Shown in pieces: positions 26,357-26,504 of a stretch of 28,575 nucleotides of DNA. The first letter of the stretch is position 1, and each line of letters begins with the position of its first letter. The DNA lies in assembly GCA_964016885.1 (NCBI GenBank), contig CAXHJY010000749.1:1-28575 (forward strand), written 5' to 3'. The position numbers and the translations under genes were made by a program. Source of the stretch: Eledone cirrhosa (taxonomy: Eukaryota). The notes beneath the pieces were generated by a model. That model was not told where the DNA came from and did not search any database. It saw only the letters and a list, made by a program, of their open reading frames with translations.

Positions 26357-26394
26357 CCTTTACCGGTTTCGCAGTTCTTCTGCTTTTCAAAAGG
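26357..26394 (-). ncRNA. Minimal hammerhead ribozyme, U3-A8 variant (mirror of 26467-26504)
   Basis: Reverse complement of the + strand copy. Confidence 0.75.
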
Positions 26395-26466
26395 TGAGTT
26401 GAGATGGAGGGTCTGTGGTTTTTCTCACATCTGTGAGAAAAACCACAGACCCTCCATCTCAACTCA

Positions 26467-26504
26467 CCTTTTGAAAAGCAGAAGAACTGCGAAACCGGTA
26501 AAGG
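26467..26504 (+). ncRNA. Minimal type I hammerhead ribozyme, U3-A8 core variant
   Basis: cctt-TTGAAAA-gcag aagaa ctgc-GAAA-ccgg-TA-aagg, followed by AATAAA. Confidence 0.8.

What the first reader, a model, noticed from the sequence alone, without database searches (positions are those of the whole stretch)
26357..26504. Family B hammerheads have a compensatory U3-A8 catalytic core (UUGAAAA instead of CUGANGA)
Seen: copies at 4307-4350 and 26467-26504 both read TTGAAAA...GAAA-CCGG-TA, and the decayed 25929 copy reads TTGTAAA. Their stem I sequences differ yet pair (ataactt/aagttat vs cctt/aagg). Known: C3 and G8 form a tertiary Watson-Crick pair in the active hammerhead, so U3 with A8 preserves it. 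Inference: this is a selected double substitution rather than decay, and canonical CUGANGA searches would miss the whole family.
Basis: partly seen in the sequence, partly recalled or inferred. Interest (0 to 1): 0.72.

Follow-up and report, generated by a model that had tools for sequence, protein, structure and literature searches.

The report
Penelope retrotransposon hammerhead, U3-A8 core
This is a predicted self-cutting "hammerhead" RNA motif at the end of a very common Penelope-type jumping gene; its unusual core letters are real and probably kept by selection, but that same variant has already been published for such elements, so it is an ordinary new example.

Summary
The letters are as described. 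The two motifs at 26357-26504 are mirror arms of one head-to-head insertion with a 101-bp perfect palindrome. They belong to an autonomous Penelope-like retrotransposon with RT, a Cys linker and GIY-YIG, present in 11,914 copies with this exact stem II.

U3-A8 in Penelope minimal hammerheads is published (PMC4209133, about 1,300 hits in Schistosoma); natural U3-A8 was first reported in PMC3088659.

The copies share an ancestor, variation inside the family is neutral and independent (51 C3-A8, 23 G8, 0 C3-G8), and 3 of the 7 stem I pairs at 4307 come from the fold-back arm.

Better support for selection: U3-A8 persists in sister families whose endonucleases are only about 44-53% identical and whose stems differ. 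One old lineage shows U-A 23, U·G 11, C-G 15, C·A 1 of 53, with an extra purine after position 3.

Cleavage is untested. The scan noted U3-A8 hammerheads before on other DNA.

The parts
26467..26504 (+). Minimal type I hammerhead motif of family B (young subfamily): stem I cctt/aagg, core UUGAAAA (U3 26471, A8 26476), stem II GCAG/CUGC, GAAA, palindromic stem III ACCGGU, predicted cut after A17 at 26500
   Evidence: folds
26357..26394 (-). Identical mirror copy of the hammerhead in the left arm (U3 at 26390, A8 at 26385)
26330..26531 (.). Perfect palindrome with 101-bp arms; a read-through RNA folds into one long hairpin (-172.5 kcal/mol) that buries both hammerheads
26224..26575 (.). Whole head-to-head insertion of two 5'-truncated pLTR fragments in (TA)n; arms start 39 and 43 nt upstream of U3
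26224..26285 (-). 62-nt 'tail' present on one arm only; in full-length elements it is the 5' UTR stretch ending about 28 nt before the ORF1 ATG
25757..26025 (.). Older fold-back insertion of the same lineage; decayed hammerheads (UUGUAAA, UAAA) on both arms, core of the + copy at 25932-25938
4244..4413 (.). Still older fold-back insertion whose arms flank the hammerhead core directly
4307..4350 (+). Hammerhead motif of an older subfamily, U3-A8; native stem I actt/aagt, outer 3 bp supplied by the inverted arm; U10.1-U11.1

Best explanation
The motif is a minimal type I hammerhead with a U3-A8 core in the terminal repeat (pLTR) of an abundant, protein-coding Penelope-like retrotransposon; it is predicted to cut RNA only as a dimer, and U3-A8 is likely an old, selectively kept state of a whole clade of these elements. 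Shown: full elements run hammerhead - 169 nt - ORF1 (about 400 aa) - overlapping -1 frame ORF2 (775 aa stop to stop; RT, C-X4-C-X2-C linker, GIY-YIG) - about 1,050 nt - hammerhead, period about 4.7 kb. Inferred: transcription starts about 40 nt upstream of the core; two hammerheads in a longer-than-unit RNA pair through ACCGGU and slowly release a unit-length RNA that may circularise; reverse transcription starts at two sites about 79 and 141 nt after the cut site. The window copy is the common by-product, two short cDNAs joined head to head, and is probably inert because its arms pair with each other.
For: Element anatomy; direct pLTR pairs flank both ORFs in 2 of 10 fetched full-ORF loci (L101, L105), and L103 shows the same. 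29 of 30 loci chosen by the endonuclease carry U3-A8 about 1 kb downstream, 1 had no match. U3-A8 stands downstream of endonucleases 44-53% identical to B's in families B', D, E and C (L153, L183, L195, L203; L083 51% over 464 aa), with different stems I and II. Lineage F, nested in U3-A8 relatives (100/100, tested columns masked), has U-A 23, U·G 11, C-G 15, C·A 1, other 3 of 53 (hand count; the 30 fetched give 17/4/8/0/1), and the C-G copies group together (80/83, one exception). Three in-register C3-G8 doubles (L039, L041, L045) among 13 hits, against at most 0.7 expected from the single-change counts. From older to younger B subfamilies stem I goes A-U, A·G, C-G and stem II gains two Watson-Crick pairs. 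The double-hammerhead fold is 1.4 kcal/mol above the dimer minimum; the monomer does not form stem III. Literature: PMC4209133 (parts 1-2 of 4 read), PMC3088659 (section 8 and passages), PMC8557442 (passages), PMC11167929 (part 1 of 4).
Against: No cleavage data. C-to-T and G-to-A both follow the AT bias of the element. In a full pairwise mutant scan of one hammerhead only the G-C swap rescued this pair, so U-A was low there (PMC9901934, passages). Penelope minimal hammerheads cleave poorly even as dimers (PMC4209133). Nearly all inserted copies run through the cut site intact: only 627 copies break or carry an indel between G12 and 6 nt past the site, and only 3 of the 30 fetched end exactly at it. 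Lineage F is one evolutionary path, its inner branches are weakly supported, and no C3-G8 outgroup with a linked ORF was found, so the direction of the first change is not shown.
Confidence: 0.8

Rival explanations
1. The U3-A8 core is a weakened or non-cutting hammerhead, fixed by AT-ward mutation and founder effect and kept because the sequence or fold does another job in the pLTR (promoter, RT binding or pausing).
For: Both changes are AT-ward transitions; U-A did not rescue activity in PMC9901934; almost all copies were made from RNA intact at the cut site, with no clear peak of ends there; 18 of 34 arms end 32-43 nt upstream of the core instead.
Against: All other catalytic positions and the three stems are kept across families with about 50% protein identity; C·A is nearly absent in lineage F while U-A, U·G and C-G all occur; PMC3088659 states U3-A8 ribozymes are active in vitro (the primary paper was not held).
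Confidence: 0.14
2. A double substitution arose and was selected within family B itself.
For: Family B is fixed for U3-A8.
Against: Sister families on a separate, well supported branch (99/99) also carry U3-A8, so the state predates B unless it arose several times.
Confidence: 0.04
3. The 200-nt palindrome is a hairpin element in its own right (MITE-like or microRNA precursor) and the hammerhead likeness is incidental.
For: Perfect 101-bp hairpin; weak Rfam microRNA matches, all below gathering score.
Against: Arm lengths and centres differ from copy to copy; the arms are the 3' end of a protein-coding element; inverted 5'-truncated copies with a one-sided tail are the known Penelope pattern (PMC8557442).
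Confidence: 0.02

Closest known systems
U3-A8 minimal hammerheads in pLTRs of Cercyon Penelope-like elements of Schistosoma mansoni (Cervera and De la Pena 2014, PMC4209133; parts 1-2 of 4 read, supplements not opened)
   Same: Type I minimal hammerhead in a PLE pLTR, U3-A8 instead of C3-G8, short stem I, palindromic 15.2-16.2 region, dual motifs on opposite strands 100-700 bp apart, missed by the canonical descriptor.
   Different: Here stem II is 4 bp without the extra base after A9, stem III has a 2-nt palindromic loop (as the paper describes for Drosophila, rotifer and shrimp variants), copy number is about 20,000 against about 1,300, and the carrier has two ORFs.
Natural U3-A8 core covariation (Perreault et al. 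2011, PMC3088659; section 8 and passages read)
   Same: Same covariation of the 3-8 pair; the paper also notes tolerated U10.1-U11.1, seen in older subfamilies here.
   Different: The passages read do not describe a base inserted between positions 3 and 4, as in lineage F; they list insertions at 2a/2b, A6a and U13a.
Neptune/Nematis-type C-terminal-EN Penelope-like elements (Craig et al. 2021, PMC8557442; passages read)
   Same: RT then CX2-5CxxC linker then GIY-YIG; (TA)n targets; inverted 5'-truncated copy; one-sided tail; optional frameshifted ORF1.
   Different: Tail is about 62 nt against 30-40 nt in the paper; clade not placed by a tree with reference sequences.
PAc Poseidon element of Anolis (Frangieh et al. 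2024, PMC11167929; part 1 of 4 read)
   Same: Two fixed outer ends per insertion, explained there by internal RT initiation at two sites and extension of both strands.
   Different: In PAc the protein-binding region lies in the ORF start; here both ends map to the 5' UTR before ORF1. Mechanism here is inferred from DNA only.

Membership tests
Type I hammerhead ribozyme (minimal, PLE type) | Core N3-UGA-N-N8-A ... GAAA ... UH with three stems in type I order | tested here: met
   U3 and A8 replace C3 and G8
Type I hammerhead ribozyme (minimal, PLE type) | Positions 3 and 8 can pair and covary | tested here: met
   Between families and in lineage F; no power within family B
Type I hammerhead ribozyme (minimal, PLE type) | Short palindromic stem III allowing a dimer | tested here: met
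   ACCGGU; dimer fold -18.9 against a minimum of -20.3 kcal/mol
Type I hammerhead ribozyme (minimal, PLE type) | Match to an Rfam hammerhead model | tested here: not met
   No hit at E<=10 for the B motif; neighbouring C3-G8 motif hit HH9 below gathering score. Minimal variants are known to escape canonical descriptors.
Type I hammerhead ribozyme (minimal, PLE type) | Site-specific self-cleavage | not testable with these tools
   DNA proxy (copy ends at the cut site) gave no clear peak
EN+ Penelope-like element | RT with C-terminal GIY-YIG endonuclease | tested here: met
   RVT_1 E=1.3e-6 (just under cut-off), GIY-YIG E=4.4e-6
EN+ Penelope-like element | Direct pLTRs with hammerhead, inverted truncated copy, one-sided tail | tested here: met
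Neptune clade | CX2-5CxxC linker between RT and EN; (TA)n targets | tested here: met
   CGRSNCGTC in ORF2; flanks; the linker is shared with Nematis
Neptune clade | RT phylogeny with reference Neptune and Nematis elements | not tested
   No reference PLE sequences were fetched
Non-LTR retrozyme | Non-coding tandem units of a few hundred bases, each with a hammerhead | tested here: not met
   Unit is about 4.7 kb and protein-coding

The most novel reading that the evidence does not exclude
U3-A8 is the ancestral, working core of a whole clade of Penelope-like elements and the dominant state among CCGG-type hammerheads of this genome (about 20,000 copies against 13), and one sub-lineage walked back to C3-G8 through a U·G wobble while carrying an extra purine between positions 3 and 4: a natural stepwise compensatory path at a catalytic tertiary pair and a core insertion not found in the papers read.
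Probability: 0.35. Interest if true: 0.45.

Novelty: new member of a known kind. Interest (0 to 1): 0.25.

Why it matters
The variant itself is known, so the finding mainly matters for annotation: CUGANGA-based counts would miss about 20,000 motifs in this genome. The family is young, has many intact ORFs and a graded series of subfamilies, which makes it a convenient system for the open question of whether Penelope hammerheads cut in vivo. Lineage F offers natural U-A, U·G and C-G versions of the 3-8 pair in one background.

Tried and rejected
DNA similarity search of the genome returned nothing because the repeat is too common; patterns were used instead. Whole-window Rfam listed only microRNA-like hairpin and other weak matches among the 150 of 269 rows shown. 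Tabulating positions 3 and 8 inside family B has no power (about 0.1 doubles expected). The 13 C3-G8 hits are mixed: 3 lineage F, 2 family D, 1 old B, 3 junction artefacts of B, 1 family A, 1 tandem retrozyme-like array, 2 unassigned. Looking for copy ends at the cut site was inconclusive: of 30 fetched loci 13 read through, 3 end exactly at the site, 4 end two bases short; my hand count of the 100 listed rows gave about 5-6 ends per position from the site downstream and about 2 inside the core, but RT pausing at stem I or microhomology could give the same step. A sample of 40 evenly spaced 10-kb stretches gave only 6 descriptor hits (3 U-A, 3 C-G, 0 in reversed controls), too few for a census. 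The idea that the hammerhead's UGA is the ORF stop codon was dropped: the ORF ends about 1,050 nt upstream. Post-insertion CpG decay as the cause of the TG/CA states in lineage F was rejected because CA goes with G8 in 14 of 14 and neighbouring CpGs are mostly kept. No RNA holder listed. The endonuclease tree found no outgroup with a linked C3-G8 hammerhead, and its rows include broken copies. Lunse et al. 2017 and Przybilski and Hammann 2007 are not held and may already describe further core variants; supplements of PMC4209133 were not opened.

Full report
Observation. The three copies read as stated. The flagged range holds two identical motifs, 26394-26357 (-) and 26467-26504 (+), in a perfect palindrome 26330-26531. 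The 25929 and 4307 copies also sit in fold-back insertions. At 4307 the arms flank the core directly, so the outer three pairs of the 7-bp stem I are an arm pairing with its own template. The native older subfamily reads tactt/aagta (L042, L086), so the real difference from cctt/aagg is one A-U to C-G change.

What carries it. The pattern with this exact stem II has 11,914 matches in the 3.0-Gb genome and none reversed. One copy (L001) led upstream to the end of a GIY-YIG domain 1,022 nt before the motif. A protein search scored 150 of 10,485 candidates, many in 775-codon open frames. Ten such loci were fetched. All ten hold the 775-aa ORF2 (RVT_1 and GIY-YIG; linker CGRSNCGTC). Six also hold an ORF1 of 378-410 aa overlapping it in the -1 frame; a TTTTTTA run in the overlap looks like a slippery site (recalled motif). 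L101, L103 and L105 have a hammerhead on each side in direct orientation, 4.7 kb apart. This fits a C-terminal-EN Penelope-like element of Neptune/Nematis type (PMC8557442, passages). I did not test the clade with reference sequences. Earlier scan notes call the genome cephalopod; I did not check that.

How the window copy arose (inferred). Insertion arms have two outer ends, about 79 and 141 nt after the predicted cut site, both before the ORF1 ATG at +169. 18 of 34 arms stop 32-43 nt upstream of U3, the window's two among them (longer arms are underestimated by the ungapped walk). This matches internal RT initiation at two sites (PMC11167929, part 1 of 4) on an RNA that starts, or stalls RT, about 40 nt upstream of the core. 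The window copy is then two short cDNAs joined head to head in (TA)n. A read-through RNA folds into a -172.5 kcal/mol hairpin, so this copy is probably inert.

Of the 11,914 copies, 51 have C3, all with A8 (T at position 8 was not asked), and 47 have a base other than A8, 23 of them G. No copy has C3-G8; about 0.1 is expected by chance. This shows U3-A8 is the founder state, and nothing about selection. With stem II left free and CCGG fixed: U-A 19,994, C-A 138, U-G 98, C-G 13 (reversed controls 13, 12, 7, 2). Three of the 13 are in-register doubles in U3-A8 families (L039, L041, L045), a small excess over at most 0.7 expected.

Evidence for selection between families. (a) 29 of 30 loci picked by the endonuclease carry U3-A8 downstream; one had no match. 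(b) Families B', C, D and E have different stems I and II, endonucleases or ORF2 stretches 44-53% identical to B, and the same U3-A8; they form a 99/99 branch apart from B. (c) Within B, older subfamilies have weaker stems (A·G in stem I; G·U or U·U and U·C in stem II) and the youngest has all Watson-Crick pairs; the age order is inferred from identity to intact copies. (d) Lineage F has one extra base before UGA. The base two before UGA and position 8 give U-A 23, U·G 11, C-G 15, C·A 1, other 3 of 53 (hand count). With those columns masked, F is nested among U3-A8 relatives (100/100) and the C-G copies group at 80/83 with one U-A exception (46 rows, midpoint root). This is one path, not many events. 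In the U-G copies the two bases could instead extend stem I, leaving no position 3.

Evidence against a strong ribozyme. No cleavage was measured. Both changes are AT-ward. A full pairwise scan of another hammerhead found rescue only by the G-C swap (PMC9901934, passages). Penelope minimal hammerheads cut weakly even as dimers (PMC4209133). Only 627 copies break or carry an indel from G12 to 6 nt past the site, with no clear peak at it, so nearly all inserted cDNA came from uncut or re-joined RNA. The monomer folds stems I and II only (-7.5 kcal/mol); the double hammerhead is -18.9 against a dimer minimum of -20.3.

Known or new. Cervera and De la Pena 2014 report U3-A8 in Cercyon pLTR hammerheads, missed by their first descriptor, about 1,300 hits. 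Perreault et al. 2011 report natural U3-A8 and cite in vitro activity. Searches turned up no paper on a base inserted between positions 3 and 4; two key papers were not held, so that absence is weak. The scan has noted U3-A8 hammerheads several times elsewhere.

Verdict. Real, probably selected, already described: a new member of a known kind. Interest 0.25.

Noticed in passing
L208-L237 (lineage F), e.g. L211, L212: Old related family with one extra purine between position 3 and U4; the base before it and position 8 occur as U-A, U·G and C-G, and the C-G subfamily also gains two stem I pairs.
   Followed up: partly
L101:2788-6254: ORF1 overlaps ORF2 in the -1 frame across a TTTTTTA run, suggesting programmed frameshifting; ORF1 has no Pfam match.
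   Followed up: partly
window 25057-25099 (+): Canonical C3-G8 minimal hammerhead of another family (CTAG stem III); L038 shows two copies 443 bp apart, retrozyme-like.
   Followed up: partly
window 9397-9456 (-): Another C3-G8 hammerhead-like motif with a long stem II; family also in L031.
   Followed up: no
window 11996-12031, 22840-22875, 24072-24107: Three near-identical copies of a different high-copy fold-back family with CTGAAAA ... GAAACCGATA; does not fit a plain type I hammerhead.
   Followed up: no
window about 27370-27729 (+): Ankyrin-repeat coding exon (Pfam Ank_2); it resembles the start of a TRPC channel (recalled), so the palindromes may lie in or just before a host gene.
   Followed up: no
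L144 (-) near 3170; L037 (+) near 680; L100 (-) near 6180: Further U3-A8 motifs with unrelated stems and other palindromic stem III loops, one copy each seen.
   Followed up: no
L047: Mirror-image tandem arrays of a 310-bp unit, each unit with a C3-G8 hammerhead.
   Followed up: no
window 11562-11686, 22536-22634: Two related long hairpins of another repeat family, giving only sub-threshold microRNA matches.
   Followed up: no
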